DNA from: an uncultured Solirubrobacteraceae bacterium
GTDB taxonomy: Bacteria > Actinomycetota > Thermoleophilia > Solirubrobacterales > Solirubrobacteraceae
NCBI GenBank assembly: GCA_963755475.1
Contig: CAVWJK010000003.1
Coordinates: 1,759,386-1,823,385, forward strand
Reading direction: 5' to 3'
DNA length: 64,000 nucleotides
This document shows positions 29,395 through 49,322 of the stretch, piece by piece. The notes below the pieces were generated by a model. That model ran no database searches, was not told the origin of the DNA, and saw only the letters and a list, made by a program, of their open reading frames with translations. Both the position numbers and the translations under genes were made by a program. How positions within the stretch are numbered: position 1 is the first letter of the stretch; each line of letters begins with the position of its first letter.

Positions 29395-29500
29395 CGGTGT
29401 TTTCGGGGGTTTGCCCGTGTTGCTCGACTTCGCCAAACACTGATCGGGGCGAACGGTTCAAGTCGGCTTCCTATCTATGGGTTTTCTGCATGTCTGCGGT
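29395..29500. repeat. att-like junction 1 (core ATCGGGGCGAACGGTT at 29443)
   Basis: Core matches the tRNA-Pro 3' end; left arm GTTTTCGGGGGTTTGCCCGTGTTGCT; degenerate right arm. Confidence 0.75.
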
Positions 29501-29556
29501 TTATTCGTCCGAGATGTCGGGTCGGCTGGCATGATTTCGTCGATACCATTAGGTCC

Positions 29557-29638
29557 GTGGCGAATCAGCAGAAGCAGGCCGACGGAGGGACTGCGAGTCA
29601 AGGTTCGCGTCACCCGCGACATGTACCGCCAGCGGTAG
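29557..29638 (+). pseudogene. Internally deleted copy of the small gene at 30728-30904
   Basis: TEGLRVKVRVTRDMYRQR* versus TEGLRVNVRVTRDMYRPR*; same TACCAT-N7-GTG start context. Confidence 0.7.
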
Positions 29639-29714
29639 GGTCAGCAGCGCTGCACCGCCCTCGATGGCTTGGTCGAGCCTGCTCGATTCCTCGTCGGTCA
29701 TCCGGCGAGACCAC

Positions 29715-30132
29715 ATGCTCCCGCCCGACGACGAGCCGTAGGCGCGTGGGCGAGACTGGACGTCGCGCCAGAGCGCACTTCGACGCCGACGCCTGGGAAG
29801 AAGACCTCGCCCGCACCACCCCCGCGGGTCGTCAGGCCGCCGAGGCAGCGCGCAAGGACTACGAATAGCACGGCGGACCGATCGCCAAGCTACGTCGTGT
29901 CGCCGAACACGCACATGGTCGCGACCGCACCATCCTTCCAACTGCACGAAGATCTACGTGCCGCCGCCCAACGGTCGCTTCGGGATGATCTTCATGCTCA
30001 AGGTCCAGCCCGACAGGCGGCCCGTGCTGATGTTCCTCGCCTTCGGCGTGCGCCACGACCCCGGAGACTACGGCGCCCAACCGTCTATCAACTCGCCCAC
30101 GAGCGGCTGCGCGGCCAGCCGCCAAGGCTCTG
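29715..30132 (+). pseudogene. Degenerate copy of the 37114-37716 gene pair
   Basis: HMLPPDDEP*, FDADAWEEDLAR and FGMIFMLK..PVLMFLAFGVRH, with an in-frame stop and frameshifts. Confidence 0.8.
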
Positions 30133-30319
30133 AGCATGGCGACGGGGCACAGCTCGCCGCTACCAGCGCAACTAGGCTTCGTGTGATGGCGACCTCGCAA
30201 GTGTTCAGCGAGCAGAACTGGCGGCTCGCAGAACTGTCCGCTACGCCATCGACGTCATAGCAAAGCACCGCGAGCGCTCCAACGCTCCTTCCGCGCAGAC
30301 TCCGCTAGGGATCGTCGGA

Positions 30320-30610
30320 GGGTCTACGGATTTCCTACGGGTTCGGCGTCCCGCGTCTACGAATATGCCAGCGAAAGCCCGCAAACATGGGTGAAACGGC
30401 CAACGCCGATTCCCCGTGTTTTCGTGTTTTCGGGGGTTTTCGCCCGTGTTTGCTGGGATTTAGCAAAACACTGACCAATCGGGGCGAACGGTTAAGTTCG
30501 GCTTTCCTATGCAGTTTCCGGCGGTCTGCTACGAATTTACGACGGCCATACCGGCTTCATGCCGGGCTTTGCGCTGGTCCAGGCCGGCTGTATGCCATGC
30601 CTAACATACG
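30320..30610. repeat. att-like junction 2 (core at 30478)
   Basis: CTACG repeats at 30324, 30335 and 30357; left arm GTTTTCGGGGGTTTTCGCCCGTGTTTGCT; right arm ending GTATGCCATGCCTAAC. Confidence 0.85.
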
Positions 30611-30727
30611 TACGTCGTGCCTAACATACGTCTGCCGTGTTGCCGAGGCATTCGACGGCTCAGACAATGGGCCGAGCGCGAGATGTCCGGACCCATTGGC
30701 AACACTCAGGCGGATACCATGAGATCT

Positions 30728-30904
30728 GTGACGAAGGCGAAGACCAACGGAAAGATCCAGCGGCTCAGCCCCGAGAGGCTGGCCGAGCTTAGGGTGCCCG
30801 CGACCGCTAAGACCCCCGAGGAAAAGCAGGCAGCACTGAAGCGTGCCACCGAGGGCCTCCGGGTCAACGTCCGCGTCACGCGCGACATGTACCGCCCCCG
30901 GTAG
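30728..30904 (+). CDS. Small basic protein, putative antitoxin of the PIN toxin
   Basis: 58 aa, ends 6 nt before the PIN gene; a paralog remnant lies at 29557. Confidence 0.6.
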   Translation: MTKAKTNGKIQRLSPERLAELRVPATAKTPEEKQAALKRATEGLRVNVRVTRDMYRPR

Positions 30905-30910
30905 GCGCCG

Positions 30911-31501
30911 ATGAGCCCGGCAGGCGGGCGCAGACGCCTCACCCGCGGCGTGTTCTCGATCGAGGACCAGCAGCTGACCCTGCCCGACCCGATCGCCCTG
31001 GACACCAGCTTCGTTGTCGAGGCCCTGCTCGCAACCCAGCCGCTACACGGCGTGTGCGATGCCTTCCTCAAACGCATCTTCGACAGCGGCGTATCGGTCG
31101 TCACCAGCGAGCTGCTTCGTATCGAGCTCGCCGAGACCGCTTTCGCGATCGCCATGAAGGAACGCTGGGGCAGGCGCTGGCGAGCACACCGCACCGACGG
31201 ACGCTCCCGCCGCCGCGCCGCACGGCTGCTGCACGACACCATCTTGCGCGATGGCGCGCTCCTCACACCCGTCGATCACTTCCCGATACCGCTCGGCGAC
31301 ATAACGGCCACCGCCATCACCTTCATGACCGACTATGGCATGGCGTCCTACGACGCTGCCCACGCGGCAACGGCCATCTCCGCCGGTGCCGAAACGATCG
31401 TCACGCTCGACACCGGCTTCGCGCTCCTGCCTTCGACCCAGCTCACGATGTACACCGACCGCTCGCGACTGGGCTCGTGTCGCACCAAGCGATCACGTTG
31501 A
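30911..31501 (+). CDS. PIN-domain (VapC-like) ribonuclease
   Basis: IALDTSFVV, SELLRIEL, SYDAAHAATA, IVTLDTGF. Confidence 0.88.
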   Translation: MSPAGGRRRLTRGVFSIEDQQLTLPDPIALDTSFVVEALLATQPLHGVCDAFLKRIFDSGVSVVTSELLRIELAETAFAIAMKERWGRRWRAHRTDGRSRRRAARLLHDTILRDGALLTPVDHFPIPLGDITATAITFMTDYGMASYDAAHAATAISAGAETIVTLDTGFALLPSTQLTMYTDRSRLGSCRTKRSR

Positions 31502-31695
31502 GGCAGGGACATCTGCTCGCGTTGCTCGCCTTGGTCGTGGTGACCGGAGCCGGCCTCGCGGTCCGTTTGCTTCCAGGAGAGACGAACCTCTCCCATCTTG
31601 GTTGGCTTTCTGGAGACCGCGCCGCGCCGGCGTCTGGTCAACCGCCCTTGTAGCCCACCGGAGGACCTTCCTGGGGCCGAGCGCTCGGCCGTCGG

Positions 31696-32529
31696 TTAGT
31701 GAGCGGCAAAGAACTCGGCGAGCAGCTCGCCGACCTGCTCGGGCTTGTCCTCTTGGAGGAAGTGTCCGGCGTCCGGGAGCGAGGTGATCTCGGCCTGCGG
31801 GATGTCTCGCTGGATCCGCTCGACGAAGGCTCCAACGCCTTCCAGGAAGTGATCCTGTTCGCCGTAGATGACGCGCACTGGCATGCGTACCGACGGCAGC
31901 TCGGCGGCGAGGGCAGCTAGTCCCGCGTTCTCGAGTTCCGCGCCTGCCTTCGCGAGCGCGAGACGGTCCTCGTCGGTGACGAACGGGTCGGTCATCCCCT
32001 CGATCGCCTCCCGGGTCACGCTCGCCTTCTTCGCGGTGCCGAGCCGGAGCGTCGCCTCGAGGCCGGCAGCGCTGGTGTAGTGCTCGCGTGCGCCCGGCGT
32101 CTGCAGCGCGCTGATGAGCTTCACGAGCGTCTCGGTCATGTCCTCGGGGTAGAGCACGGTGTTGAGTAGCGCGATCGCCCGCACCCGCTCGAGGTTGTCT
32201 AGCGCGAAGCGCGCGCCGATCGGCCCGCCGAGGTCGTGCACGCCGATCGCCACGTCCTCGACCCCAAGCGCGTCGAGGAAGCCGCGCACGGCCCCCGTGA
32301 AGAAGTCGAAGTCGTAGGTGACGTCGGTCGGCTTGTCTGACCAGCCGAAACCGGGCAGGTCGAGCGCCAGCACGCGCGTGCGGCGTGCGATCGGCGCCAT
32401 CACGTTGCGCCACAGAAACGACGACGTCGGCCAGCCGTGCAGCAGCAGGACCGCCGGGCCGGCGCCGGCCTCGCGGTAGGCGAGTGTACGCCCGCCGACC
32501 TCGATCGTGTCCATCGCCGTCACTGTCAC
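31696..32529 (-). CDS. Alpha/beta hydrolase (haloalkane dehalogenase/epoxide hydrolase-like)
   Basis: LLHGWPTSSFLWR, DLPGFG, nucleophile elbow VHDLGG, AGHFLQED. Confidence 0.9.
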   Translation of the reverse strand: MTVTAMDTIEVGGRTLAYREAGAGPAVLLLHGWPTSSFLWRNVMAPIARRTRVLALDLPGFGWSDKPTDVTYDFDFFTGAVRGFLDALGVEDVAIGVHDLGGPIGARFALDNLERVRAIALLNTVLYPEDMTETLVKLISALQTPGAREHYTSAAGLEATLRLGTAKKASVTREAIEGMTDPFVTDEDRLALAKAGAELENAGLAALAAELPSVRMPVRVIYGEQDHFLEGVGAFVERIQRDIPQAEITSLPDAGHFLQEDKPEQVGELLAEFFAAH

Positions 32530-32564
32530 CGCGTCCTCCTCGTGTCGACTGAGCGTATATGAAA

Positions 32565-32606
32565 CCCGACTGTCGGTCTGTAACTTAGCAGACCGACAGT
32601 CGGTCT
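32565..32606. promoter_or_regulatory. Paired TetR operator palindromes
   Basis: CCGACTGTCGG and AGACCGACAGTCGGTCT in the divergent gap. Confidence 0.75.
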
Positions 32607-32617
32607 ATGATCAGTGG

Positions 32618-33220
32618 GTGATCGACGGCCGTCGCGAGCGCGGGCAGGCAACCCGCGAGCGCCTGATTGAGGCCGCGCGCGCGCAGTTCGGCGCGTATGG
32701 CTACGAGAGCGCGTCACTCGACGCGATCCTTGGCGCGGCTGGCGTCAAGCGCGGCGCCCTCTACCACCACTTCGAGAGCAAGCAGGCACTGTTCGATTCC
32801 GTCCTCGACCGCGTCGTCGAGGAGATCGCAGCGCGGGTCGCCCGCGCTGCCCGCGCCGCCCGTGATCCCGTCGAGAGCCTGCGGATCGGCTGCAGGACCT
32901 GGCTGCGGATGGCACTCGATCCCGCAGTCCAACAGATCGTCCTCATCGACCCGCCATCGGTCGTCGGCTGGACGCGCTGGCGCGAGATCGACGAGCGCCA
33001 CACGCTCGGCGGGCTCCAACGCAACCTCGAACAGCTTGCCGAGCATGGCCGACTCGCCAACGGCGACGTTGCCCTGCTCGCACACATGGTGCTCGCTTCC
33101 GTCAACGAGGCAGCGCTGCTCATCGCACACGCTGACAAACCACGCGCCGCCCTCAGGGTTGGCGAAGCAACAGTCGACACGCTCCTCACGGGGCTCGTGC
33201 CCGACGCCACGGCGCACTGA
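32618..33220 (+). CDS. TetR-family regulator
   Basis: RGQATRERLIEAA...AGVKRGALYHHFESKQALF. Confidence 0.9.
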   Translation: MIDGRRERGQATRERLIEAARAQFGAYGYESASLDAILGAAGVKRGALYHHFESKQALFDSVLDRVVEEIAARVARAARAARDPVESLRIGCRTWLRMALDPAVQQIVLIDPPSVVGWTRWREIDERHTLGGLQRNLEQLAEHGRLANGDVALLAHMVLASVNEAALLIAHADKPRAALRVGEATVDTLLTGLVPDATAH

Positions 33221-33339
33221 CCGAAGCGCTCCCTCCCGCTATCACGAGGGGACGATCTCAAGCGGCTCCGTCGTTCGCCAGGCGCGGACCAGGATCAAGG
33301 CGCCCTGGTGGTGGCGGGCGACAGCGACGCCTGCTGGAG

Positions 33340-33650
33340 GCTAGGTACCGACGAACCAGCCCCCCGCCACACGGCGGCTGAATCACACCGTCATGCGTTA
33401 CGAGGCGCTGCTCTCGCCCGTCAACCACCTGCCGATCCCCGTTCGTCGCGTAACCGCCGACGCCAGGGTCTTGATGACCGACTTCGGCATCGCTTCCTAC
33501 GACGCCGTACACGCCGCCAGCGCCATCGCCGCAGGCGCCGAGGCGATCGTCACGCTCGACACCGGCTTCGCGCTGCTCCCCTCCGCTCAGCTCGCGATCT
33601 ACACCGACCGCTCGCGGCTCGCGTCGTGCCGCGACAAGCGACCGCGCTAA
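33340..33650 (+). pseudogene. 5'-truncated paralog of the PIN gene at 30911
   Basis: ASYDAVHAASAIAAGAEAIVTLDTGFALLPS..YTDRSRL; N-terminal catalytic Asp missing. Confidence 0.8.
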
Positions 33651-33664
33651 GCGAGCGCGGATCA

Positions 33665-34297
33665 CTACTCGAGCTCCCGAAGCAGTTTCGATTTCCAGGC
33701 CCCGGCACTGTCGATCGGTATGTAGGCGATCCCGTCGGTGTCGGACGGAAGCTCGACGCCATCCTCATACAGCACAGCGACGTGCTCCCGCCCGAGACGC
33801 CCATAGAAGAATCCCATCTCAAGGACGACGTTCTGGCGGGCGCGCGGATGAAGTTCGTGCTCGGAAACTCCGCCTACATCGTCCGCCGTGAGCAAGATTA
33901 CGGCCCAGCCCGCCTCGGACGCATGCCGTTCAAACTTCTCGATCAGCGTCTGGCCCCTGTTCGCCTGTTCGTGGAGAATGACCGCCTTACGTCCGCCCTC
34001 CTCGTTGATCGTGCGAGCGACCTGTTCGCGGATTAGTTCGTTGTGACCATGGACTACAAAGACGCCTGCAGGCACCGGCTCCTCCTCGGGCTCGGGATCG
34101 GTCGCCAAACCGGACGGCTCCTCGGCGAACTCAAGACGTTCGACTAGCGACTGCATTACATTCAGGCAGGACGCGTGCCGTTCGAGAGCACGTTCCGCAT
34201 CGACCTGCCGTGGCGTACCGGCGATAGCAACGAAGATGCGGCCTGACTGATCGAACTCCTTCCACTCCGGGGAGCCCCCGCCGTAGATGACGCGCAA
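33665..34297 (-). CDS. TIR-like nucleotide-binding protein (CAP12/Pycsar-effector TIR family); the frame stays open to about 34429 without a canonical start
   Basis: VFVVHGHN, ILHEQANRGQTLIEKFE, AVILLTADD, RARQNVVLEMGFF, LPSD. Confidence 0.88.
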   Translation of the reverse strand: MRVIYGGGSPEWKEFDQSGRIFVAIAGTPRQVDAERALERHASCLNVMQSLVERLEFAEEPSGLATDPEPEEEPVPAGVFVVHGHNELIREQVARTINEEGGRKAVILHEQANRGQTLIEKFERHASEAGWAVILLTADDVGGVSEHELHPRARQNVVLEMGFFYGRLGREHVAVLYEDGVELPSDTDGIAYIPIDSAGAWKSKLLRELE

Positions 34298-34539
34298 TGC
34301 CTCGAGACTCAGACTCTTCCAGCGTTCTTTGTCGTGTATCCATCCGCGATAACCAGCGTCGGAGCTGACCTGTTGCGCGAGAGTATCCCCGAGAGCCCGA
34401 TCCTCGGCTCGAGCTCGGGCTACCAGAATCTACTCGGAAAACAGATCGAAAGCGGTAAACGTAGGCCGTCGCAGCCGCTTGGCCCGGTAGGCTGGCGCGC
34501 CATGGTCGCGATTTCTTCTGTCATCTCGTGCTCGATACA

Positions 34540-34910
34540 CCGCCCCCGGAGACTGTCTACCAACTCGCCCATCAGCGGCTGCACGGTCAGCTGCTAAGGC
34601 GCCGAACCCTGAATACGGCCCCTCATTTGCGTCCTCTGGCAGCAGGGCTTGAGACCCCAGCGGCGATCTGATCTCATCGCGCAGCCCATGAAGCGTGATC
34701 GCGAGCACGAGCGCCGGCCGCCCGAGCCCTGCGTGACCAAGCGACAGCCGAGCACCTGAGCGTCACGCCACGCTGGATCGAGCTCCAGCAGCCGCTCGGT
34801 CTTCCGCGCCTGTCCACCGGCGGCATGAGCCGCTATCGAATCTCAGAGGTCGAGGCTTGGCTGCGCGAGCGTTACGGCTGCCCCTCGGAGCCACCCACGT
34901 AGTCGCTGAC
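34540..34910 (+). pseudogene. Remnant RelE-like 3' end plus frameshifted excisionase-like HTH (copy of about 37660-38027)
   Basis: VYQLAHQRLHGQL, then MKRDREHE..PPEP.VTKRQ and GGMSRYRISEVEAWLRERYG. Confidence 0.8.
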
Positions 34911-34984
34911 CGAGGCCCATGGCCGTCGCTGCTTTCGCACCGATTCGCCTCCGTACGCCCTCGTTCGCTTCTACCCGACCCGAC

Positions 34985-35185
34985 TGAAAGTTTTTGTCCC
35001 GTAACGGCCCCCGAGACGACCTTTCTATGTCGGGAGACCCATCAAAAAATATCGGGGCGCCCGGTTAGAGTTGGCTTGCCTATGCGGTTTTTGGGCCGTC
35101 TGCGGGGGATTTACGACGGCCATGCCGCGCCGAAGCCGGGGGTTCCGCGAAATCATACCCGCCGTATGCCATCGTGAACGGATGT
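34985..35185. repeat. att-like junction 3 (core ATCGGGGCGCCCGG at 35051, 14/14 identical to the tRNA end)
   Basis: Left arm TTGTCCCGTA.CGGCCC.CGAGACGACCTTTCTA is shared with junction 4; right arm GGTTAGAGTTGGCTTGCCTATGCGGTTTT...CGTATGCCATCGTGAAC. Confidence 0.88.
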
Positions 35186-35228
35186 ACTGGCGTGAGCTTC
35201 GCTAGCTCGTTGCGTATCTTTTCCGGCG

Positions 35229-36071
35229 ATGGCATGCCCACGGTGTGGACAAGCTGGACCACGTAGACATATCGCGCCTGGATTCTGGGAATGTCAGGCT
35301 CAGGTAGAGCATATCGGTACGGCCATGAGGCCGATGCCCGGTCGTCCCTGGATGAGTCAACCGTCGCCGATCGTGGACGTCGAGGCGTGCGGTACCCGCT
35401 ATCAGGAGGAGACCACAGCGGGCGAACGCACCGCCCTTTGCTCATGCGGCACGTTTGCGATCGGCATCTGCTCGGACTGCCATCGGCCGGTTTGCGGCGA
35501 ATGCAGCAGGATGCACGCTAGCCAGCGCACGTGCACGGCGTGCCTCGAAGCGATCAGGCAGGCGGAGGCGGAGGAGCAGAGGCGCGCTAAAGAGCGAGCG
35601 ATAGCCGAGCGGGACACGTGGGAGAACGAGCCGTTGACTCTCAGCCGGCCACAAGCGTTTGACATCCTTTTCATCCGGGAGGCCGACCAGCGCGAGATCA
35701 ATTCCGCGGTCGGTTGCCTAGAGTCAATTGAGGAGCCAGAGTTTCGCGAGCTAGCGATTGCCTGCCTGGAAGCTGCTGGCCGCCCGCTTAAGGAGGAAAC
35801 GCTCCACGACAGATCACGCGGCTTCCTAGCCCGCCTTCGCTCATACCGCGTCTGGTGGTTCTTCGCTCCACGGACCCGTGGCATCCAGTATGTCGGCATT
35901 ACGCCCGAGGGACGCTGGATGGAGTGGACAGAATCAAGCGGCGATAGGAATTGGGGTGTTCGTCGCTACACCGATCTCACGACATCTGCGGTGCGCGATT
36001 TGATTAGCGACGCGTCTCGCGGTGGCGGCGGGAGGTCGGCTGGCAACTCGTTCTTCCAGCGGCCTTTCTAG
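35229..36071 (+). CDS. Hypothetical Cys-rich (zinc-finger/B-box-like) protein
   Basis: CPRC, CSCGTFAIGICSDCHRPVCGEC, CTAC, then a coiled segment. Confidence 0.65.
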   Translation: MACPRCGQAGPRRHIAPGFWECQAQVEHIGTAMRPMPGRPWMSQPSPIVDVEACGTRYQEETTAGERTALCSCGTFAIGICSDCHRPVCGECSRMHASQRTCTACLEAIRQAEAEEQRRAKERAIAERDTWENEPLTLSRPQAFDILFIREADQREINSAVGCLESIEEPEFRELAIACLEAAGRPLKEETLHDRSRGFLARLRSYRVWWFFAPRTRGIQYVGITPEGRWMEWTESSGDRNWGVRRYTDLTTSAVRDLISDASRGGGGRSAGNSFFQRPF

Positions 36072-36204
36072 TCGCCAGAGCCAGCAGTTGGAAAGCTAAC
36101 CCGGACGCGACTTTGGGGTTTCCTCGTCGGGACACCCGACCAAGACGCATCCAACACCCGGCGGCCCTGGCACACGGCTCCAGATACGCGCGAGAATACC
36201 GTCG

Positions 36205-36897
36205 ATGATCGAACTGCGTGGTCCATCGAGCGAGGTCTTTCTTGTTGATGAGGGGAAGCTAGACGAGAGAGCGTGGTTGGCATTCATCTACGGCCAATGT
36301 CACGGCCTCGCACTCGCCCTCCACAACAGAACTGGTTGGCCACTGGTGGCGGTGGTCGATGACAACGGGGCGTGTGGACATGTCTGTGTCCGTCGCCCCG
36401 ACGGCCAGATCGTCGATGTCACTGGGGCGCACACTAGCGAGGAGATGGCCTCCGCATTAGGACAAATACTGCATATCGATACTCACTACATCCGTGACCT
36501 CGAATCTCAACACGGCTGGGCATCTGCAGAACCGGACTCCGCCGGCGCATGGGTAGACGCGGTCATAGCACGCGCCGAAGCACCCACACGAATTTCAGCG
36601 ATGGCAAAGCCCGCACTTCAAATAACCATGCAGATCGACCGCGATCTGGAACTCAAGATCGAATGGCCCGGTGCCATGCACCTGAACGTGTATGTGCGCC
36701 GCATACCGAGCGCAGTCGAGCGATGGACGCTGTACGGCGAGGTCGGGCTTCGTCCCGACGCAAACGGTGTCTACGTCATCGACTACACGCTTGCTCGACT
36801 ACAGCGACTCGGCACAGCATGGCTCAACTCCAACTTCGACCGTGCGAAGGCCGATGGCACGCTCGCTGCAACGCCACCCACCGACCAGGCGTCGTGA
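36205..36897 (+). CDS. Hypothetical protein with a possible Cys-His-Asp triad
   Basis: GQCHGLALALH..TGWP...GHVCVRRPDGQIVDVTG. Confidence 0.6.
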   Translation: MIELRGPSSEVFLVDEGKLDERAWLAFIYGQCHGLALALHNRTGWPLVAVVDDNGACGHVCVRRPDGQIVDVTGAHTSEEMASALGQILHIDTHYIRDLESQHGWASAEPDSAGAWVDAVIARAEAPTRISAMAKPALQITMQIDRDLELKIEWPGAMHLNVYVRRIPSAVERWTLYGEVGLRPDANGVYVIDYTLARLQRLGTAWLNSNFDRAKADGTLAATPPTDQAS

Positions 36898-37113
36898 CGC
36901 AGGTCGCCTTCAGGGACGTAACCATGACCGCGCATCGTTGGGACACTGCGGCAGTAGCGCGGCGCCCGCGAGGTAGCTCGGCGGGCGATGGGGCCATCCC
37001 GTCTCGGCTCGACCGTATCACCCGGCCGACGAGATCGGATCGCCTGGCGTACGTAGATAGGTTCCCCGCCGTCGCTTGCCGACGGGCCAGAGGCACCTGC
37101 CATTATGGAGAGC

Positions 37114-37329
37114 ATGGCCGAGCAGGCGCATGTCAAGCTCAGCGGCGATATCAACGGCCGCTACGTCGTGACCGACCGTCGGGCCGGCGGGGAGCTTACG
37201 CTCGTGCCGGACACCTCCGCTGAGGCTATACGCGAGCGCGCCGGCTTGCTCGATCCGACGCCAGAGCAAGCGGAGGCATTCTGGCGCGAGAACGAGCCGC
37301 ACATGCTCCCGCCCGACGACGAGCCGTAG
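37114..37329 (+). CDS. Small acidic-tailed protein, putative antitoxin
   Basis: Directly precedes the RelE-like gene; its tail is conserved at 29715. Confidence 0.6.
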   Translation: MAEQAHVKLSGDINGRYVVTDRRAGGELTLVPDTSAEAIRERAGLLDPTPEQAEAFWRENEPHMLPPDDEP

Positions 37330-37332
37330 CCC

Positions 37333-37716: not shown

Positions 37717-37796
37717 GCCTGAACACGGCCATCATCTGCGTCCGCTGACGGTAGAGCTTGAGACCCCAGCGGCGATCTGATCTCATCGCGCAGCCC

Positions 37797-38027
37797 ATGA
37801 ATCGTGATCTTGAGCACGAGCACCTGCCGCCCGAGCCCTGGGTGACCAAGCGACAGCTCGCCGACCATCTGAGCGTGACGCCACGCTGGATCGAGCTCCA
37901 ACAGCCGCTCGCCCTTCCGCGTTGGTCCACTGGCGGCATGAGCCGCTATCGGATCTCAGAGGTCGAGGCCTGGCTGCGCGAGCGCTACGGCTCGCCCCCG
38001 GAGGCGTCTCAGCAACGCAATCGCTGA
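37797..38027 (+). CDS. Excisionase-like (MerR/AlpA-type) HTH protein
   Basis: WVTKRQLADHLSVTPRWI...RYRISEVEAWL; adjacent to junction 4. Confidence 0.75.
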   Translation: MNRDLEHEHLPPEPWVTKRQLADHLSVTPRWIELQQPLALPRWSTGGMSRYRISEVEAWLRERYGSPPEASQQRNR

Positions 38028-42298: not shown

Positions 42299-42504
42299 GC
42301 GCCCGCGTGCTGCTGCGATCACGGCCGAGACTCGATCACGCCCTCGCGAGGTTCGACTTGCCCGCCGTCTCGGAGATATTCGCTACCTCCGAGTAGCGCG
42401 AACTACCGCTCGGGCACCCGCCCGTTTGCGCCGGCAGGTCGCTCGGGCCGCGCACGCAAGTCCCGGCCTCGAGGCGCTTCGCGCGCTGCTCTGGCTGAAC
42501 GGAG

Positions 42505-44378
42505 CTAAGCAAGCTCGCCCTCCGACACCTCGTCCTCGTCGAAGAGCGGTGCTATGCCGGCCCGGACGTCGGCCGCCAAGTCGTCTGGCTCAGAATCGTC
42601 CGAGGATGCCTCCGCGGCCGGCGCGGAGATGCCGCAGGCGCGGCGGATCTCATCGATTAGAGCCGCCTGGCGCGCGTAAAGGAAGCGCTCAAAGAGGTCA
42701 GCCGCTTGCTCCTCGGTCAGGTTCTCACTGGCGCGCCCCATCAATGGCATGGTCGCTGCGTTTAGGAAATGCGGCTCGAGTAGCTCCGGCTGCGGACCAG
42801 TCGGTAAGATGTCGGCGTCGTTGATGTATTCGGCCGGGGCTTTGTCCTTGATCTTTCCGTTGGTCTCGTTCGAGATCAGTGTCCGGTTGGCGATCGTGTT
42901 GACGTCGACTTTCTTGGTGATTCCGTGGCGTTTGAGATAGGCCCGGGGGAAGATGTGGTGGTCCTGAAGCTCCTGCAACCGGATGTCCTCGCCGCGGCGC
43001 CAGTCGCGGGCGTTGCGCAGGGCAAGCAGGCAGAAGATGCCGCTATAGACGGCACTTGCATAGCTCGCTGAGTCGCGGACGCGAAAGCCGGGCGCGCCAA
43101 CGTAGTTCTGCGCTTCGCGGAACACCTCGGGCTCTGCTCCGCCCTCGAACCAGTGACGCGTCATCTCCTGGTAGTCCTTGCGCGACTTGCTCTCGACGGC
43201 GCTTGAGTACCGCTCCAGAAAGACGTTGCACCAGTACCAGCGGCGCAGCTCGTCGCGCTCGGCGTGTCCTAGCTTGTGGTCCTCGATCTCCGCGCGGAGC
43301 GCAGCGAGTATCGGGACGAGGCCATACCCGGGAAGCCACTTCTCGGCGAAGACCCCGAAGCCATCCGGCCCGACGAGCTCGATCATTCCGAGGGCTTTCT
43401 CGATGGCGGCGGCCGCGCGGCGCCAGTCCACCTCAAATCCATCAGGTTGAAGGTCGATGAGGATCCGCGGCTTTGGATCAAGCCCGCGCATCAGGGCGAG
43501 GGTGCGCAGGACGAGCACGCCGAACTTGTGCTCGTCGGCCTTGCCTTTGGACCACGCCTTGAGCCGGGGGTGGGCGGTGACAGCCTCTTTCCAAAGATCA
43601 TGCAGGCGGATGTCGGAGCGATATAGACGGGCCGTCAACAGGTCGTACACCGAGAGGTCCACGCCGGTGGAGTTGAGCTTCTCGAAGATGGCGCATACGC
43701 GCCCTATCGAGTCGTCCTCCTCGACGGGCGGAAGTTCAACAAGCGGGGCCTCAAAGGTCTGGAAGTCGATGACGGCAGTCGTCCAAGCGGTCTCGCCACT
43801 CAGCCCGGTAACGCTCAAGGTCCCCAGGAGTGGCCTCGCGCAACCAGTCCTCGAACCCGTGTAGCCAGTGCATGTAGCTGTGCTGGTCGAGCAGCACAGT
43901 GCAGGGCAGGATGCGCTGCTTGTACTGAACCTCAGCCATGTCGAGCCCCTGAAGGTCGCGTTTGGATCGCTCGAAGACGACCTCATCGCTGTCGGGCTCC
44001 TCAAGGAGGACGTCTAGGTTGACGAAAAACCAGCGGCGCTGGTTGGAGTGCTTCAGAGACAGGTCGGGCGCCGTGAGCGCGTACATCAGCGAGGACAGCC
44101 TTTGCTGACCGTCGAGGACCAAATAGCTCGGGGCGCGGGTCTTTGTACTGCGGCTGTGCGCCGCGTAGGAACTCCGGGGCGAACGGCGGGTCGTTGGGGT
44201 CGGACCGCAACAGCAGCAGGGAGCCAATGAAGTAGCCGCGGATGATCGAGCGCACGAGGTCGGCCACCTCCTCGCGCGTCCAGACGAAGTCGCGCTGGAA
44301 GTTTGGCAGGCAGATGGTGCCGTCGTACGCGTGCGCCACGAGCCCGACCACCTTGCGCTTGTCGGGAATGATCTCCAC
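42505..44378 (-). CDS. GmrSD-type restriction endonuclease (DUF262 plus DUF1524/HNH), two frameshifts
   Basis: LPNFQRDFVW, LDGQQRL, IFEKLNSTG, DHHIFP...ANRTLIS..TN. Confidence 0.87.
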
Positions 44379-44602
44379 GTCGGAACATCATATGGAGCGG
44401 ACTGGCCGGGCACCCGCGGCTCCGGTGGCGCCCACGCTTACCTACTTTGGGACGTCAATAACTCGCTTCAGAGCAGGACTGTTGCCCGCCGCAGGGGCTC
44501 GTTGGACATGAGCCAGATGCGGCGAGACCACCAAGATAAGGAAGGGCGTGTGCTCGATAAGCGCCCGTATGCCGACCGTCGGGCCCTCCCGAGGCGGCCA
44601 AA

Positions 44603-44777
44603 GCTGCGATCCCTCTGCGGTCCGTTTCGGCACCCGCTGCGGTCCGCGTGCGGTCCCGAGTCCCACAAACCAGCGAAACCTGTCATGCGAGGCTCAGCGT
44701 TTTCGGGGAGTTTCGCCCCTGTTCGCGAGTTTTCGCAGACAAAAAATATCGGGGCGCCGAGATTCGAACTCGGGTAC
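44603..44777. repeat. att-like junction 6 with a tRNA-Pro 3' fragment (T-arm plus acceptor strand, 44748-44774)
   Basis: Minus strand reads CCGAG-TTCGAAT-CTCGG-CGCCCCGAT; TGCG(G/A)TCC at 44605, 44616, 44638 and 44649. Confidence 0.9.
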
Positions 44778-44801
44778 TAACCCTCCCGCTCCCGTCTCCA
44801 T

Positions 44802-45051
44802 AGACGGGGCTGGTAGCGCCTGGGCATCAGGGACGTGGGCCCGGTTCCTTTACGGGCCGCAAAAGCCCCTACGGTTTCGAAATAGAGACGGAGCTGGTAG
44901 CGCTGGGGCAGTAGGAGGGCGGGCTAGGCATTGCACGAACGGTAGGGGCGAGCGCGCGGCTGACCGCCCGCTTTTTCCACCGCACACCACGGTCCGCTGC
45001 CTCTTAAGAGACAGGTTCCGGTACGGGCCGAAAACGCCCCTACGGTATCGA
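44802..45051. repeat. Two pairs of imperfect direct repeats upstream of the integrase
   Basis: AGACGG.GCTGGTAGCGC at 44802 and 44886; GGTTCC..TACGGGCCG.AAA.GCCCCTACGGT.TCGA at 44843 and 45014. Confidence 0.75.
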
Positions 45052-45103
45052 CATGTCCCTTCCCAGATGGCTCATACCAACCGCTACTACGGAGGTATGA
45101 GCA

Positions 45104-46207
45104 ATGTCCGTCACCGAAGTCAAACGCGAAATTCCCACCGTCGCACGAGCGGTCGAGCTGTTCATCCAGGCTCGCCAGAACCAATACACCAACGGGTTTG
45201 TGTCTGTCCTATCCGGCCCGCGCTCAGGTCGCGTCGTGGGAAGGCGCGCCGCCGGCGTAACACTTGCACGCTCAGAGCTTGGCGGACTACGCTTCAATCG
45301 GGTGAAGGGTCATGACTTCGTGGCGTGGCTGCACCAACGGCACGACGGTCTCGCGCCTAGCAGTTTCAAGAATGGCCGTGCTGCCCTCTCTGGCTTGTTG
45401 CAGTTTGCAATCGAAAACGAATGGGCCGACGACACGGTGTTTGCCGGCTGGCCGCAGGCGAAACCGAGTCCTGAACGCCGCGACTGGCTCCGTCCCGAGC
45501 AGGTTACGGCGCTGGGCGCGTTCGTCACGGAGCGTCACTTCTCGCCGCAACAGTGCTTTACATGGTGGGCCGCTCTAAACTCGGGGGCGCGCACAGAGGA
45601 GCTGATAACTTTTCAGCCTCGCGCCCTCAACTCCCTGGACGGGAGCCTGAAGATTATCGGCAAGGGCAAAAAGCTCCGCTACGTGCCCGTGAGTCCTGAG
45701 TTCCAGGCCGAATGGCGGACCTATGAGCGCGCACACTCATTGCGTCCGTCAGCGTGGATGTTCCCTTCGACGGCGGTGCGGTTCGTTGATGGCAAGCACA
45801 ACGAGCGCATAACCGATGCGAGCAAACATTGCTCCGCAAAGGCCGCTCTCACCGTGACTGGCAAGGTAAGGAAGCTTGCCCACCAGGCCGTGGAAAGAGG
45901 ACAATTGGACGACACCCTCCTACCGCCATTTGACCTCACCCTCCAGGTGTTGCGCCGAACCTTCGCCTGTACCAACCTCATCGCCCATGCGCTACTTGGC
46001 CCCGGTCACGGCATGGACCTACGCACCCTTCAGCGTGCGATGGGTCACTCGTCGTTGGAGACGACCGCAATCTATCTAAACGACGTTGACGACTACATCA
46101 ACCGCCACCGCAGGCCACAGAGCGTGTCCGAAAGTGCGCGCGAATTGGCAGCGCTGGTCAGCGCCAACGGCACGGCACCCGTCGCCCCGGCGCCGCAGCA
46201 CCCGTAA
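45104..46207 (+). CDS. Tyrosine recombinase/integrase
   Basis: SGARTEEL (R), GKGKK (K), QVLRRTFA (HxxR variant), MGHSSLETTAIY (H, Y). Confidence 0.92.
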   Translation: MSVTEVKREIPTVARAVELFIQARQNQYTNGFVSVLSGPRSGRVVGRRAAGVTLARSELGGLRFNRVKGHDFVAWLHQRHDGLAPSSFKNGRAALSGLLQFAIENEWADDTVFAGWPQAKPSPERRDWLRPEQVTALGAFVTERHFSPQQCFTWWAALNSGARTEELITFQPRALNSLDGSLKIIGKGKKLRYVPVSPEFQAEWRTYERAHSLRPSAWMFPSTAVRFVDGKHNERITDASKHCSAKAALTVTGKVRKLAHQAVERGQLDDTLLPPFDLTLQVLRRTFACTNLIAHALLGPGHGMDLRTLQRAMGHSSLETTAIYLNDVDDYINRHRRPQSVSESARELAALVSANGTAPVAPAPQHP

Positions 46208-46267
46208 AAGTGCCCCGGAATGCCGTGCGCTCCTGCACTCTCGTAGAAATACGAACAAGGAGTTGCA

Positions 46268-46548
46268 TGATGTTGATATTGAAAGCGAAGTTTCTGAGTA
46301 CCCGCGAACTACCGAGCAACGGCGACTATCCGCCGTCCGTACTCGCCACAGTTCTCGATGACGGCGAGACCTTGAATCTCGTCGTCCTGGACGCCGAGAC
46401 CGGCACTCGCCTAGCCGCTGTCAAAGAGCTAGAGCCGGTCATTCTTCGCCTCCGATGGAGGCGGGTCGCGCTCTCGCCTCCGACGGGGCGCGGCAATGCC
46501 TATCGCCTCCAAGTGGTCGGCATTGCCGACGTGAAGGAGGTGTTCTAG
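46268..46548 (+). CDS. Small beta-rich protein, possible ssDNA-binding (OB-fold) protein
   Basis: RBS AAGGAG; about 92 aa with alternating hydrophobic strands; lies upstream of rep. Confidence 0.5.
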
Positions 46549-46908
46549 ATGGCGCCCAAGCGCAGCAGACACAGATGGCCGTTCCCAGACCAACCCACAT
46601 CGCCGTATCGCGACGTGCAGCTCGCTGCGCACCGGGCCTGCATTACTGACCCCAAAATCGCGCCGCGGGGATTTAATGATGTTCTACGCGCGGTTTGGCG
46701 CAGCCTCCGCGCGCCCCGGACGACTCCGACGCCCGATGAGTTCAGCGAGGCTATGGAAGGACTCTACGACCTGCTACGCGAGGCGGCGATGCCCGACGGC
46801 GTAGCCGTAGTCGAAGACGACGAGCGGCAGGCTGTATATCGAACCGCGATGAGTCATCTTGACGAGCTGTACGAAGTAGCTCGCACGTCGGGCCTGCTTG
46901 TGGAATGA
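46549..46908 (+). CDS. Hypothetical protein
   Basis: RBS AAGGAGG; abuts the previous stop codon. Confidence 0.6.
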   Translation: MAPKRSRHRWPFPDQPTSPYRDVQLAAHRACITDPKIAPRGFNDVLRAVWRSLRAPRTTPTPDEFSEAMEGLYDLLREAAMPDGVAVVEDDERQAVYRTAMSHLDELYEVARTSGLLVE

Positions 46909-46909
46909 C

Positions 46910-47126
46910 CGTCGGCTACGGCCCAACCTGACCGATAAACAACCGCGCCGTCACGGAGGCTGTCACCCGTAGGGCGGCCAAGCCGAGGGCGAAGCCCTTG
47001 ATGGCACCGTGAGGCGTGGTATGCCCGCCGCAGGCGAGGCCGCGAGGCCGAGCCGAGGCGGGACCGCCCCGAAGGGGCGGCCACCAAAGAGAGCTGAAAC
47101 GCCCGTGCGCGTGGCAGGCTTGACCT
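46910..47126. other. Hairpin-rich intergenic region, candidate replication origin
   Basis: AGGGC-GAA-GCCCT near 46986 and CCGCCCC-GAA-GGGGCGG at 47064-47080, directly before rep. Confidence 0.55.
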
Positions 47127-47831
47127 ATGCCGGATGACCTCTTCAACATTTCCTTGAATGCGACCGTAGGGAGCATTACGAATAAGTGTGAAAACAAGTC
47201 ACCGTTCGAGTGCTCAAACCTTTTTTGGCTCACTTGCCTCAACCACGGCGAAGACATCACCGTGCGGTGCAAAAGATGGCGGGTTTGTCCTGGGTGCGCA
47301 CTTTGGAAGCAGATGACGCTCACACAGCGGCTCATCGCAGGCGTTGAGAACGTACCGGCTGACAAGGTGCCGATGTTCTTTACGCTCACGTTCCCGCTCG
47401 CCCTCGCTCCCAACGAATCCGAAGCGCACCGCGCTTGGCGCTCGCTCGTCGCACGCCTCCGCTACCGGGGCTATCTCAGCGCATACGGGTGGGTGCTGCA
47501 ACGCCAGCGGAACGGAACGCTGCACTTCCACGGCATCGCGCACCTACCGTGGTTCGCCGACGGCCTGGCCGAGTGGCGCAAGCTGCTGGTCAAGAGCGGG
47601 TTCGGCATTCAGAACAAGCTCGTTGTCGCCAAGCGTCAGCACGCGGGCTACTGCGCCAAGTACATCTCCACACGTCTAGCCGAGCTTGCGCCGTTGCACC
47701 GAGCCTACGGATTCTCTGCTGACTTCCCTCAGCCGAAGGCCGTAACGGACCGAGCAGAGTTGGCCGAGCGCTACGGCATCGTACTGGATAGCGACTGCAC
47801 CTGGGTGCCGTCGTATGAGCTGTATAGCTGA
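47127..47831 (+). CDS. HUH rolling-circle replication initiator (Rep)
   Basis: Cys cluster CKRWRVCPGC; motif I FFTLT; motif II QRNGTLHFHGI; motif III YCAKY. Confidence 0.87.
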   Translation: MPDDLFNISLNATVGSITNKCENKSPFECSNLFWLTCLNHGEDITVRCKRWRVCPGCALWKQMTLTQRLIAGVENVPADKVPMFFTLTFPLALAPNESEAHRAWRSLVARLRYRGYLSAYGWVLQRQRNGTLHFHGIAHLPWFADGLAEWRKLLVKSGFGIQNKLVVAKRQHAGYCAKYISTRLAELAPLHRAYGFSADFPQPKAVTDRAELAERYGIVLDSDCTWVPSYELYS

Positions 47832-47870
47832 CCCGCACACTCCTGGTCTTGGCGTAGTCCGAGCGCGTTC

Positions 47871-48431
47871 TCACTTCAGCCTATAGGCGCCATGCTCTCC
47901 GGCGATGGTCCAAATTTCGTCAACGCCTTCATTCCATTTCGTCTTCGCTGCTTCTAGCTGGGTCGTAAAGTGCGCTAGCGTCGCGGGGTTTGGATTTCCC
48001 GTGTAGGCAACCAGACCGCCCATCGCGTTCTTGAGTTCGTTAGCGCCTTCCGAAAGCGTCACCGTAGCGTCAGAGAGCTTTTCGTTGCCTCCCGACGTCA
48101 CTAGTTCGCTGCGAAAGCCTTCGATTTCGTTGTGGGCTCCTTGCGCAACTTTGGCGAGTTCGTCAATCACCGTGCTGCTTTCATTTCCCGATTTGGTGAG
48201 CAACCCGACAAGCAGCGCGACGTGTTCGTAATCGACCCTGCCGATGTTGATGACGTGGCTTTTCTGCGAGATGTATTCCTGCGCTTCCTTCTGCGGCGAC
48301 GTACTTTTCCCGCCGCTGCCAGCAGCGACCGCAATGATGATGACGACCACAACAACGATGAACGCGAGGCAGCCGCATCCCGTCCGTGTGTTGCCTTTGG
48401 CTTTCGCCGGTGCTCCCCCTTGTGCGGCCAT
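47871..48431 (-). CDS. Membrane-anchored helical hypothetical protein
   Basis: GCGCLAFIVVVVVIIIAVAAG TM helix followed by a helical domain. Confidence 0.75.
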   Translation of the reverse strand: MAAQGGAPAKAKGNTRTGCGCLAFIVVVVVIIIAVAAGSGGKSTSPQKEAQEYISQKSHVINIGRVDYEHVALLVGLLTKSGNESSTVIDELAKVAQGAHNEIEGFRSELVTSGGNEKLSDATVTLSEGANELKNAMGGLVAYTGNPNPATLAHFTTQLEAAKTKWNEGVDEIWTIAGEHGAYRLK

Positions 48432-48435
48432 CGCG

Positions 48436-49041
48436 CTAACAGTTTGTTCCGGGGGAAGATGGAGCGAGGCTCATGATGGCGGTAGTGACGTTGCTTGCGC
48501 TGTAGGCCGATTCGCCATTTGTGCCTTCGCTGAAAAGGTCGATGCCCATGACGCCTCGCCCATCCCCAACCTTTGGATTGGCGAACCATCGACCCAGCGT
48601 GGCGCTCTGCACGTTCCATAGCCCGCATGAGCCTGTCGAAGTGTGCGCCACCGTGAAGGAGGTCGTTCGGGTATCGCTGGGCAGCAGCTGTTGGACAGCC
48701 TTCTTTGCAGCCGCCGCAGAAGTGCCGTCCGGGAAGGACTGTTCGTAGCCGTCGATGCGCCCTTCTGGCGTCGTCGTTACAAGCCTGAATTCGTGGGTGC
48801 CTTCCGAGTTGATGGTTGGGCCGTAGCAGGTGCCAGCGCTGCAACCGCTCGTCTCCTTCGGATGCGCTGATTCCCAGTTGGCTTTCGGCGCCCCGAGGCC
48901 GGTCCATGTTTCCGAGAGTCCCTTTGCGGCGGTCGTGCTATCGGTGCCGCTGCTAGAGCTTCCGCAACCGGCTACGCCCCCAACCAGCGCGACGAACCCG
49001 GCGACGAGAGTCAGCGGCAGCAATATTTGATTGTGACTCAT
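48436..49041 (-). CDS. Putative lipoprotein
   Basis: Lipobox VAGC followed by a Ser-rich linker. Confidence 0.75.
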   Translation of the reverse strand: MSHNQILLPLTLVAGFVALVGGVAGCGSSSSGTDSTTAAKGLSETWTGLGAPKANWESAHPKETSGCSAGTCYGPTINSEGTHEFRLVTTTPEGRIDGYEQSFPDGTSAAAAKKAVQQLLPSDTRTTSFTVAHTSTGSCGLWNVQSATLGRWFANPKVGDGRGVMGIDLFSEGTNGESAYSASNVTTAIMSLAPSSPGTNC

Positions 49042-49248
49042 CGCACGGACTCTATACCGAGCCCGCGACGCACTGCTGCCCGCGTCTGCGCAGGCGCCGA
49101 GTCCCGCGCGCACTCTCCGCGATGCCGAGTGCTACCCCATCCACCGCGCCCGCGCGCCAGCCTGCGAGCCAGACCACCAAGCAGCCTGGTTCAACTACCC
49201 CCGCTATGTACCTTTCCGCACAAGTATAATATGGCTGTGAGCCATCAA

Positions 49249-49322
49249 TCGGGGCGCCCGGATTCGAACCGGGGACCTCGCCGACCCGAACGGCGCGCGC
49301 TACCAGGCTGCGCCACGCCCCG
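49249..49322 (-). tRNA. tRNA-Pro (anticodon CGG), CCA not encoded
   Basis: CGGGGCG acceptor stem, anticodon arm CGCCG-TTCGGGT-CGGCG, T-arm CCCGG-TTCGAAT-CCGGG. Confidence 0.97.

What the first reader, a model, noticed from the sequence alone, without database searches (positions are those of the whole stretch)
29395..49322. tRNA-Pro-anchored array of att-bounded, mostly integrase-less cassettes carrying defence cargo
Seen: the tRNA 3' end ATCGGGGCG recurs in one orientation at 29443, 30478, 35051, 38149, 39912 and 44748, always between genes. The first five continue (A/C)(A/C)CGGTT into a related right arm, in four cases ending GTATGCCAT about 112 bp out. Left arms fall into two classes. The five distal modules (1.0, 4.6, 3.1, 1.8 and 4.8 kb) have no recognisable recombinase. 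They carry PIN and RelE-like TA, a TIR-like protein, AbiE-WYL, GmrSD or unknown genes. The two most distal modules are the most decayed. Known: tyrosine integrases regenerate tRNA 3' ends and can stack islands in tandem. Inference: a family of minimal non-autonomous cassettes mobilised in trans and added at the tRNA end, functionally like an integron but built on tRNA att sites. I cannot establish novelty without a search.
Basis: partly seen in the sequence, partly recalled or inferred. Interest (0 to 1): 0.92.

Follow-up and report, generated by a model that had tools for sequence, protein, structure and literature searches.

The report
Stacked ICE-derived cassettes at tRNA-Pro
Behind a proline tRNA gene of a soil actinobacterium lie five small gene packets with no recombinase of their own, bounded by the same docking arms as a conjugative element found in relatives; they likely arose from that element by deletion and likely hitch-hike with it between species, a known process seen here in an unusually regular form, with matched end codes and packets that keep only the predicted excisionase.

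Summary
The array is real: six 9-bp cores with conserved arms delimit five integrase-less modules (1.0-4.8 kb) and one unrelated Int+Rep element beside tRNA-Pro(CGG). The arms belong to an undescribed ICE family of this Solirubrobacteraceae genus (xis-int, Replic_Relax, VirD4, VirB4), which sits at all three tRNA-Pro genes in relatives; its integrase was not found in this 64%-complete genome. Of 101 modules rebuilt from relatives, 87 lack integrase. A deletion series links one ICE to such modules, and whole modules move between species (95.5% identical against 76.8% for host DNA). They therefore fit CIMEs, stacked by site-specific accretion and most likely carried in cis; no circle and no oriT were found, so mobilisation in trans is not shown. 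New features: short arm repeats match between a module's two ends (50 of 59) and track the integrase N-terminus, and 21 modules keep only an excisionase-like gene, one clade under purifying selection (dN/dS about 0.23). The scan has reported similar integrase-less tRNA arrays on other DNA. Verdict: new variant of a known kind.

The parts
49248..49323 (-). tRNA-Pro(CGG), the target; its last 9 nt give the core
29289..29451 (+). Decayed LA arm + core: proximal end of a further, older module (M0) whose far end was not found
29443..30486 (+). Module M1 (1044 bp): truncated R arm, antitoxin fragment, broken toxin-like gene, LA arm with CTACGG words
30478..35059 (+). Module M2 (4582 bp): R arm (ACGG class), cargo, broken xis-like gene, LB arm; an expanded form of a 1.6-kb R-antitoxin-PIN-xis-LB module of G073
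30728..31501 (+). Small antitoxin-like ORF (30728-30904) + PIN gene (30911-31501)
31696..33220 (.). alpha/beta hydrolase (-) and TetR (+), divergent
33347..33650 (+). Second, partial PIN copy (76% to the first)
33665..34297 (-). TIR protein (CAP12/Pycsar TIR; PADLOC PDC-S35)
34688..34890 (+). Frameshifted xis-like gene of M2 (an IS-like insertion lies at 34676-34681 in runs X1, X2)
34893..35059 (+). LB arm + core: TTYGC repeats 10 bp apart, TGTCCCGT-N17-GACCTTTCT motif (34996-35026), no Int arm words
35051..38157 (+). Module M3 (3107 bp): R arm (ACGG class), two unknown ORFs, antitoxin-toxin-like pair, intact xis-like gene, LB arm
37105..37716 (+). Antitoxin-like (37105-37329) + toxin-like (37333-37716) pair, homologous to the pair beside the transfer genes of ICE G017a
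37797..38027 (+). Excisionase-like MerR/wHTH gene, 61-75% identical to the gene directly upstream of int in the cognate ICEs
38007..38157 (+). LB arm + core of M3 (motif at 38097-38127)
38149..39920 (+). Module M4 (1772 bp): matched TGCGGTC words on R (38199-38217) and LA arms; two unknown ORFs (38430-39005 -, 38989-39762 +)
39912..44756 (+). Module M5 (4845 bp): matched TGCGGTC words; AbiEi (40311-41123), AbiEii-WYL (41120-42298), GmrSD-like gene (42505-44378, minus; intact in reads)
44748..49256 (+). M6 (4509 bp): unrelated element with Tyr integrase (45104-46207) and rolling-circle Rep ORF2/G2P (47127-47831); its left end carries a T-arm copy of another tRNA-Pro allele; precisely absent in run X1

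Best explanation
The five modules are integrase-less elements bounded by the att arms of a tRNA-Pro-specific ICE family, likely derived from such ICEs by internal deletion, likely stacked by successive site-specific integration at the tRNA 3' end, and likely moved between cells by being excised together with a visiting ICE (cis-mobilisation, as for CIMEs). Steps: (1, shown) ICEs with the layout R arm-cargo-transfer genes-xis-int-cargo-LA arm sit at tRNA-Pro in relatives. (2, shown for one series, inferred in general) deletion of the middle leaves R-cargo-LA, or R-cargo-xis-short arm. (3, shown as a pattern) each newcomer enters at the 9-bp core of the intact tRNA, pushing older modules outward. 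(4, inferred) an ICE landing next to a module can excise with the module's R arm, carry it to a new host, and later leave alone; the module then sits directly on the tRNA. (5, inferred) the 7-nt arm words are Int arm-type sites and decide which ICE can pick up which module; the 10-bp-phased TTYGC repeats are Xis sites. Modules with both arms intact (M4, M5) could also be excised singly by a matching Int+Xis inside a cell; this is untested.
For: Cognate xis-int in arm-bounded elements; integrase identity (phrog_1 in 14 of 14; Tn1549/XerA/lambda Int folds from a low-confidence model, pTM 0.33); transfer genes PF13814, TrwB/TraG-D_C, P-loop_TraG, NlpC/SLT, ArdC. Deletion series G011a 41 kb -> G019b 6.8 kb (3' part of int kept) -> G009a 6.3 kb, ends 90-97% identical, IS3-family gene at the breaks. 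M3's toxin-antitoxin-like pair and xis are adjacent, but 10 kb apart around the transfer genes in ICE G017a. Whole-module transfer: G093 vs G148 95.5% over 2.9 kb, host flank 76.8%; G172 vs L131 91.7%, host 81.2%. R words better kept than LA words in 34 integrase-less GGTC modules (2 of 2 words in 32; 4 of 4 in 15), and 21 modules are xis-only, none with a full LA arm: cis-mobilisation needs only the R arm. No ICE relaxase-flanking DNA in modules beyond one 39-bp hit at E 0.001. Variable proximal slot in near strains.
Against: No matched module+ICE composite was caught: in the four cases where a full-Int element has a distal neighbour (G017, G093, G079, G029) the arm words differ (read by eye). 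0 of 87 integrase-less modules keep any trace of the transfer genes and only 5 of 101 keep part of int, fewer intermediates than fresh in-place decay suggests (probes came from two ICEs and the sample leans to modules under 5 kb). 51 of 66 modules without int and xis keep a full LA arm and 42 of 49 keep matched words at both ends, which cis-mobilisation does not require. The R-word count is partly circular, since the class was picked by one R word. No recombination was observed directly.
Confidence: 0.68

Rival explanations
1. A helper-dependent cassette system: modules with both arms are excised singly as circles by the Int+Xis of a visiting ICE, move on their own or by re-integrating into the ICE's att junction, and are the working unit rather than by-products.
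For: Matched words at both ends in 42 of 49 integrase-less R-LA modules (shuffle mean 25, max 34); full LA arm in 51 of 66; no backbone traces in 87; arrays of at least 5-6 closed modules with no cognate Int in the genome (G172, G073, G110); 26 of 33 modules lying directly on a tRNA-Pro have no integrase; integrase-less modules proximal to an Int-bearing one in G028.
Against: No joint linking a module's two ends in 8 runs (contigs drop rare forms); no oriT candidate; LA words decay faster than R words; matched ends are also kept under cis-mobilisation; no resident integrase at the array.
Confidence: 0.22
2. Dead relics: each module is an ICE that decayed where it landed and has since been inherited vertically.
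For: Deletion series with IS at the breaks; M0 and M1 are decayed; no cognate Int found in this genome.
Against: Near-identical whole modules in hosts far more diverged than the modules; one xis+LB clade in many species at different array positions; purifying selection on its xis.
Confidence: 0.07
3. The small wHTH protein of the xis-only modules redirects phage packaging (like PICI Rpp) and the LB motif is a packaging site, so these modules travel in phage particles.
For: Best fold matches are terminase-small-subunit DNA-binding domains and include Rpp (7lw0, 1j9i, 6hn7; E 0.004-0.04); phrog_57 hits 15 of 15.
Against: The same fold list holds RdfS, Pukovnik Xis and BldC; the gene directly precedes int in ICEs; the R-arm pattern has 0 hits in viral contigs; no replication genes in the modules.
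Confidence: 0.03

Closest known systems
CIMEs and site-specific accretion (ICESt1/ICESt3 family; PMC5704250 and PMC7563491, passages read; Pavlovic 2004 and Bellanger 2011 seen only as cited there)
   Same: Elements that lost integration and transfer genes but keep attL/attR, 1.2-13 kb with cargo, in tandem at one target gene, most decayed ones most distal, outnumbering ICEs.
   Different: Here stacks of five or more cargo modules with no cognate ICE in the genome (S. salivarius: 33 pairs and 4 triples, detectable there only beside an ICE/IME); a variable arm-word code tied to the Int N-terminus; recurrent xis-only modules; new host group and integrase clade.
Dehalococcoides ssrA genomic islands (PMC3146451, passages read)
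   Same: Tandem islands behind a structural RNA gene; 15 lack an integration module and were proposed to be cis-mobilizable.
   Different: Serine recombinase, 20-bp repeat, no conjugation genes; no arm code reported in the passages read.
Additive flexible genomic islands of Alteromonas (PMC4898812) and tycheposons (bioRxiv 10.1101/2020.12.28.424599); passages read
   Same: Cassettes added at tRNA genes, marked by partial tRNA repeats; near-identical cassettes in different species; newcomers push older ones outward.
   Different: Tycheposons encode their own integrase; in the Alteromonas passages no cognate recombinase or arms are defined.
Integrons
   Same: Polar array of recombinase-less units with toxin-antitoxin and defence cargo (works like one in outcome).
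   Different: No resident integrase at the array, no attI/attC hairpin; long double-stranded lambda-type arms with direct repeats; multi-gene units derived from ICE ends (integron features recalled).
IMEs, MGIs and oriT-only islands (PMC5704250; bioRxiv 10.64898/2026.01.13.699239; passages read)
   Same: Depend on a conjugative helper.
   Different: Those encode their own integrase and carry an oriT; neither was found in these modules.

Membership tests
CIME | Retains att sites at both ends | tested here: met
   Cores at all junctions; R and LA arms complete in M4, M5; R complete but LA replaced by LB in M2, M3; R truncated in M1
CIME | No integrase, relaxase, coupling protein or VirB4 of its own | tested here: met
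   0 of 87 with transfer genes. M2, M3 keep an xis-like gene, so they have not lost every recombination gene
CIME | Derived by deletion from a related ICE/IME | tested here: met
   Shared arms with full ICEs; G011a/G019b/G009a series; TA-xis junction of M3. Direct parent not identified for M4, M5
CIME | Transfers only in cis, as a composite with an ICE | not testable with these tools
   Transfer between species is shown, the route is not; no matched composite seen
ICE (parent elements in relatives) | Integrase + relaxase + coupling protein + VirB4 between att sites | tested here: met
   G011a, G017a complete; G093, G001, G034, G102 partly seen
ICE (parent elements in relatives) | Excision and conjugation demonstrated | not testable with these tools
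   no experiment
IME/MGI | Encodes own integrase | tested here: not met
   M1-M5 have none
IME/MGI | Carries oriT or relaxase | tested here: inconclusive
   No relaxase; no match to ICE relaxase-flanking DNA, but the oriT of this family is not known
Integron | Resident IntI next to attI | tested here: not met
   The only adjacent recombinase belongs to M6, which is absent in a near strain; integron-integrase model far below cut-off
Integron | attC-type single-strand hairpin sites | tested here: inconclusive
   No consensus structure in the distal R arm of 66 modules; LB folds differ between M2 and M3; LA and whole junctions were not folded
Tycheposon | Own integrase, often replication genes | tested here: not met
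   M1-M5 none; M6 has Int+Rep but was not compared with tycheposon profiles

The most novel reading that the evidence does not exclude
A helper-dependent, address-coded cassette system: integrase-less cassettes at tRNA-Pro carry short arm words that name the ICE integrase allowed to cut them out, so visiting ICEs sort, excise and spread a host-kept library of defence and toxin-antitoxin cassettes; and xis-only cassettes (LB clade, arisen more than once) are specialised hitch-hikers that supply their own excisionase and Xis sites to bias or trigger excision of ICEs landing next to them, or to expel them.
Probability: 0.22. Interest if true: 0.8.

Novelty: new variant of a known kind. Interest (0 to 1): 0.52.

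Why it matters
Integrase-less tandem arrays at tRNA genes keep turning up, usually without a known recombinase. Here the parent ICE, its integrase, the deletion intermediates and about 100 modules are in hand, so the open question (cis hitch-hiking, single-module excision in trans, or both) can be tested with a few plasmids. The covariation of 7-nt arm words with a few N-terminal residues of integrases that are otherwise up to 93% identical is a natural series for arm-site specificity and for orthogonal recombinases. Excisionase-only modules kept under selection have, in the searches made, no description, and would be a new way for a passive element to manipulate an ICE.

Tried and rejected
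M6 integrase as the mobiliser: rejected; no hit to it in the arm-bounded elements of relatives, different ends, absent in run X1. The T-arm copy at 44748 as the displaced host tRNA end: rejected; the X1 contig without M6 has the window's tRNA. Cognate Int in the own genome: none by tblastn or profile (positive control), genome 63.7% complete. Circles: none in X1-X8; contigs only, so no evidence of absence. The X3 joint 34646->37756 lies in a 46-nt shared stretch and may be an assembly artefact; joints with short sides were not used. oriT in modules: not found. Hairpin in distal R arm: none. LB motif as a general ICE repeat: found three times in one ICE only (G017a) and weakly in G034; function unknown. 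Far end of M0: not found in 89 kb upstream. Viral contigs: 0 hits. Close Int homologues (E<=1e-60) in a 150-genome draw from the order, 147 of other genera: none. PDB sequence searches for Int and Xis: nothing useful. Decay judged from frameshifts alone: unsafe, host genes in the window look frameshifted too. Scan look-ups by place and by sequence: nothing. Tree labels G020_48082_INT and L136_5260_INT are regex errors: neither is followed by int.
Full report
Observation. The window has one tRNA gene, tRNA-Pro(CGG) at 49248-49323 on the minus strand. The reverse complement of its last nine bases, ATCGGGGCG, recurs on the plus strand at 29443, 30478, 35051, 38149, 39912 and 44748. Seven copies in 29395-49322 compare with a mean of 0.17 (max 3) in 500 resamples, and core plus [AC][AC]CGGTT occurs 5 times against a maximum of 0. 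A right arm (R, about 135 bp, GTATGCCAT at +112 to +114 in four of five) and two left-arm classes (LA, LB) align well. Read from left to right each module is R-cargo-LA or R-cargo-LB. M1-M5 hold no recombinase. Cargo: PIN pair, hydrolase-TetR and a TIR protein in M2; a toxin-antitoxin-like pair in M3 and its broken copy in M1; unknown ORFs in M3 and M4; AbiEi, AbiEii-WYL and a GmrSD-like gene in M5. M6, next to the tRNA, has a tyrosine integrase and a rolling-circle Rep and other ends.

Near strains. Logan contigs of four soil runs of one study (possibly the window's source study) were laid on 29351-49350. X1 joins 44747 to 49248 with 11 shared letters: M1-M5 are there and M6 is precisely absent. 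In X3 the core at 44756 is followed by other DNA that begins like an R arm, and an X2 contig also runs on into other DNA there, so the proximal slot has at least three states. The GmrSD frameshifts are window errors; M1's decay is real. In four runs of three other studies one X5 contig joins M2's LB arm to an M5-like R arm (90% alike), and one X6 contig puts an M4-like LA arm on a tRNA end (29-nt side, weak). No contig in the 8 runs joins a module's two ends.

Relatives. The M4/M5 junction matched 24 of 36 same-genus genomes at E<=0.01, 18 of them at E<=1.3e-9; 9 of 24 genomes of other families gave only weak hits. An R-arm pattern gave 124 loci in genome contigs; of the 80 titles shown 79 are Solirubrobacterales/Solirubrobacteraceae and one Actinomycetota; viral contigs gave 0. 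The arms abut tRNA-Pro(CGG), (TGG) and (GGG). From G-handle regions and the 82 of 124 pattern loci longer than 1.5 kb I rebuilt 101 distinct closed modules from 53 sources, which are not all different genomes: 9 with a full cognate integrase (median 23 kb), 5 with part of it, 21 with only the xis-like gene, 66 with neither (median 3.0 kb). Loci with 5-kb flanks bias this towards small modules. Content and number vary freely; G172 shows six R-bounded modules in a row behind the tRNA and a further LA arm, without integrase.

The parent. In relatives the wHTH gene directly precedes, often overlapping, a divergent 400-aa tyrosine integrase inside the same arms. All 14 aligned integrases hit phrog_1; a weak model (pTM 0.33) matches Tn1549 Int, XerA and lambda Int and shows an N-terminal strands-plus-helix domain. 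The wHTH hits phrog_66 excisionase in 13 of 15 and phrog_57 in 15 of 15; its fold resembles TerS DNA-binding domains, BldC, RdfS and Pukovnik Xis, none at E<=0.001. 'Xis' thus rests on position plus fold. Complete elements (G011a 41 kb, G017a 25 kb) run R-cargo-VirB4-SLT-VirD4-Replic_Relax-methylase-xis-int-cargo-LA-tRNA, G017a with the TA-like pair before VirB4 and ArdC after the relaxase: they are ICEs. Near-full-length homologues of the integrase (at least 350 aa, 57% or more) are in 24 of 150 genus genomes by my count; none in the window's genome (63.7% complete), none close in G073, G172, G110, G148, which carry integrase-less modules (with positive control), none at E<=1e-60 in a 150-genome draw of the order.

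Origin by deletion. G019b (6.8 kb) and G009a (6.3 kb) share both ends with ICE G011a at 90-97%; G019b keeps the 3' 323 codons of int, G009a 93 bp at that place; an IS3-family gene lies at the breaks. M3's TA-like pair and xis are adjacent, whereas in G017a they flank 10 kb of transfer genes. Against simple in-place decay: 0 of 87 integrase-less modules keep any of five transfer-gene probes and 5 of 87 hit six local IS probes.

Movement. An xis-only module of G093 (distal to an ICE) and one of G148 (directly on the tRNA) are 95.5% identical over 2.9 kb while 2.3 kb of host DNA beside the tRNA is 76.8% identical; G172 and L131 share an LB module at 91.7% with hosts at 81.2%. Cargo also moves between modules: M4's cargo lies in an LB module of L098 at 87%. 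ICE DNA around the relaxase, where an oriT is expected (general knowledge), is not in the modules apart from one 39-bp hit.

Arm code. R arms carry two, LA arms four, direct repeats of a 7-nt word 11-12 bp apart. The word class agrees between a module's two ends in 50 of 59 R-LA modules (10,000 shuffles: mean 24, max 35), in 42 of 49 without integrase (mean 25, max 34), and in 17 of 22 outside the commonest class; across a junction it agrees in 12 of 21, and in 1 of 7 outside the commonest class (classes were defined by me after seeing the data, and modules are not independent). The word follows the integrase N-terminus: GCGGTC with FNRG..HVKY (G001, G036), GCGGGG with SNRG..HVEY (G011, G028), GCAACG with HNRG..YADY (G017), GCATCC with VNRG..FAKY (G034), GCAAAC with HNRG..VVSY (G093), GCAGCC with HNRG..YASY (G011 C3), although G017 and G028 Int are 93% identical; G079 and G102 (LNRG..YCGY) go with a partly inverted GCGGTC arm. 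These are few pairs and untested. M4 and M5 are GCGGTC at both ends; M2 and M3 have ACGG-class R arms, so the array reflects at least two specificities. TTYGC repeats lie exactly 10 bp apart in LA (95 spacings) and LB (18), as expected of Xis sites (inference).

Xis-only modules. LB ends were found 13 times in the pattern loci and in 9 of 150 genus genomes (6 full, 3 partial; only 4 candidates scored per genome). Eleven of 12 closed LB modules have ACGG-class R arms and 4 sit directly on the tRNA. LB keeps the TTYGC repeats but not the Int words, and holds a TGTCCCGT-N17-GACCTTTCT motif also found before three genes of G017a. LB xis genes form one clade (17 rows, 99/95), none followed by int; other xis-only modules with short arms fall outside it with weak support. 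Pairwise dN/dS over 48 codons of 11 LB genes is 0.23 (pairs not independent, one gene frameshifted near its end); several copies, including M2's, are broken or truncated.

Mechanism. Shown: ICE family and arms, polar variable stacking, deletion derivatives, transfer of whole integrase-less modules. Inferred: cis-mobilisation, because modules lack an oriT candidate, R words are better kept than LA words (2 of 2 in 32 of 34; 4 of 4 in 15 of 34, partly circular) and modules without LA words still spread. Against it: no matched composite was caught, and most modules keep both arms. I give cis-accretion 0.68, single-module excision in trans as the main route 0.22, dead relics 0.07, phage packaging 0.03.

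What is known. PMC5704250 and PMC7563491 (passages) define CIMEs, accretion and the rule that the most decayed lie farthest from the target; S. salivarius had 33 pairs and 4 triples. PMC3146451 (passages), PMC4898812 (passages), the tycheposon preprint (passages) and bioRxiv 10.64898/2026.01.13.699239 (passages) describe related tandem islands; PMC11963761 was seen only as a listing. Five searches showed no paper on this ICE family, on an arm-word code between tandem elements or on xis-only modules; the library lacks most subscription papers, including Pavlovic 2004 and Bellanger 2011, and no supplements were read. The scan's own notes list eight similar integrase-less tRNA arrays in other lineages (unchecked AI notes); none by place or sequence.

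Verdict. A real array, best filed as CIMEs of a new tRNA-Pro ICE family, with two features beyond the textbook case. New variant of a known kind; interest 0.52.

Noticed in passing
window 44748-49256: M6: 4.5-kb element with Tyr integrase, ORF2/G2P-type rolling-circle Rep, small ORFs and two predicted exported proteins; imperfect direct repeats at 44843-44883/45014-45054; Rep region 87% identical in L092; absent in runs X1-X4 but partly covered in X5, X6, X8
   Followed up: partly
G000:C3:29293-30925 (L001): A second tRNA-Pro(CGG)-Nif3 locus in the same assembly (host flank 79% identical to the window's) with one 1.57-kb module (R arm, PD40/WD40-repeat gene, no recognisable LA); two tmRNAs as well, so the assembly may be chimeric or hold an old duplication
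   Followed up: partly
G000:C3:1002521-1002730 (L002): An LA arm + core + tRNA-Pro T-arm-like fragment 130 bp from a tRNA(CAT) gene, with an unrelated Tyr recombinase 3 kb away; G019:C7 also has an LA arm 3 kb from a tRNA(CAT)
   Followed up: no
A1 alignment (e.g. L024:11883-13085): The cognate integrases read YELKH or YELRH where Tyr recombinases usually have HxLRH (motif recalled); R, K, GH and Y positions are invariant
   Followed up: no
L223, L222, L064, L212 (G113, G011, G022, G146): A second ICE subfamily (about 60% Int identity), at tRNA-Pro(TGG/GGG), several with xis-int pointing away from the tRNA, sometimes in tandem copies
   Followed up: partly
G017:C44:37047, 38381, 40157: A ~65-bp repeat with TGTCCCGT-N17-GACCTTTCT precedes three genes between relaxase and int, possibly a regulon or leading-region promoter; the same core motif is in LB arms
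   Followed up: partly
window 25871-29316: Lower-GC genes (AAA ATPase, M48-like protein, exported protein) left of the decayed LA arm; probably cargo of the older module M0; no homologue in fetched loci
   Followed up: partly
window 34676-34681: Runs X1 and X2 carry an IS-like insertion with TGTC...GACA ends just before M2's xis-like gene
   Followed up: no
G029:C8:2297454-2299931 and G031:C5:414247-417429: Triplets of Tyr recombinases (RIT-like, name recalled) inserted inside integrase-less modules
   Followed up: no
modules of G011/G019/G009, G020, G022, G028, G032: Further defence-type cargo: SMODS nucleotidyltransferase, SAVED, Mrr, McrBC, Bpu10I-type restriction enzyme, HEPN-MNT, Fic; but also much non-defence cargo (metal transport, cytochrome oxidase, methyltransferases, a 3181-aa RHS protein)
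   Followed up: no
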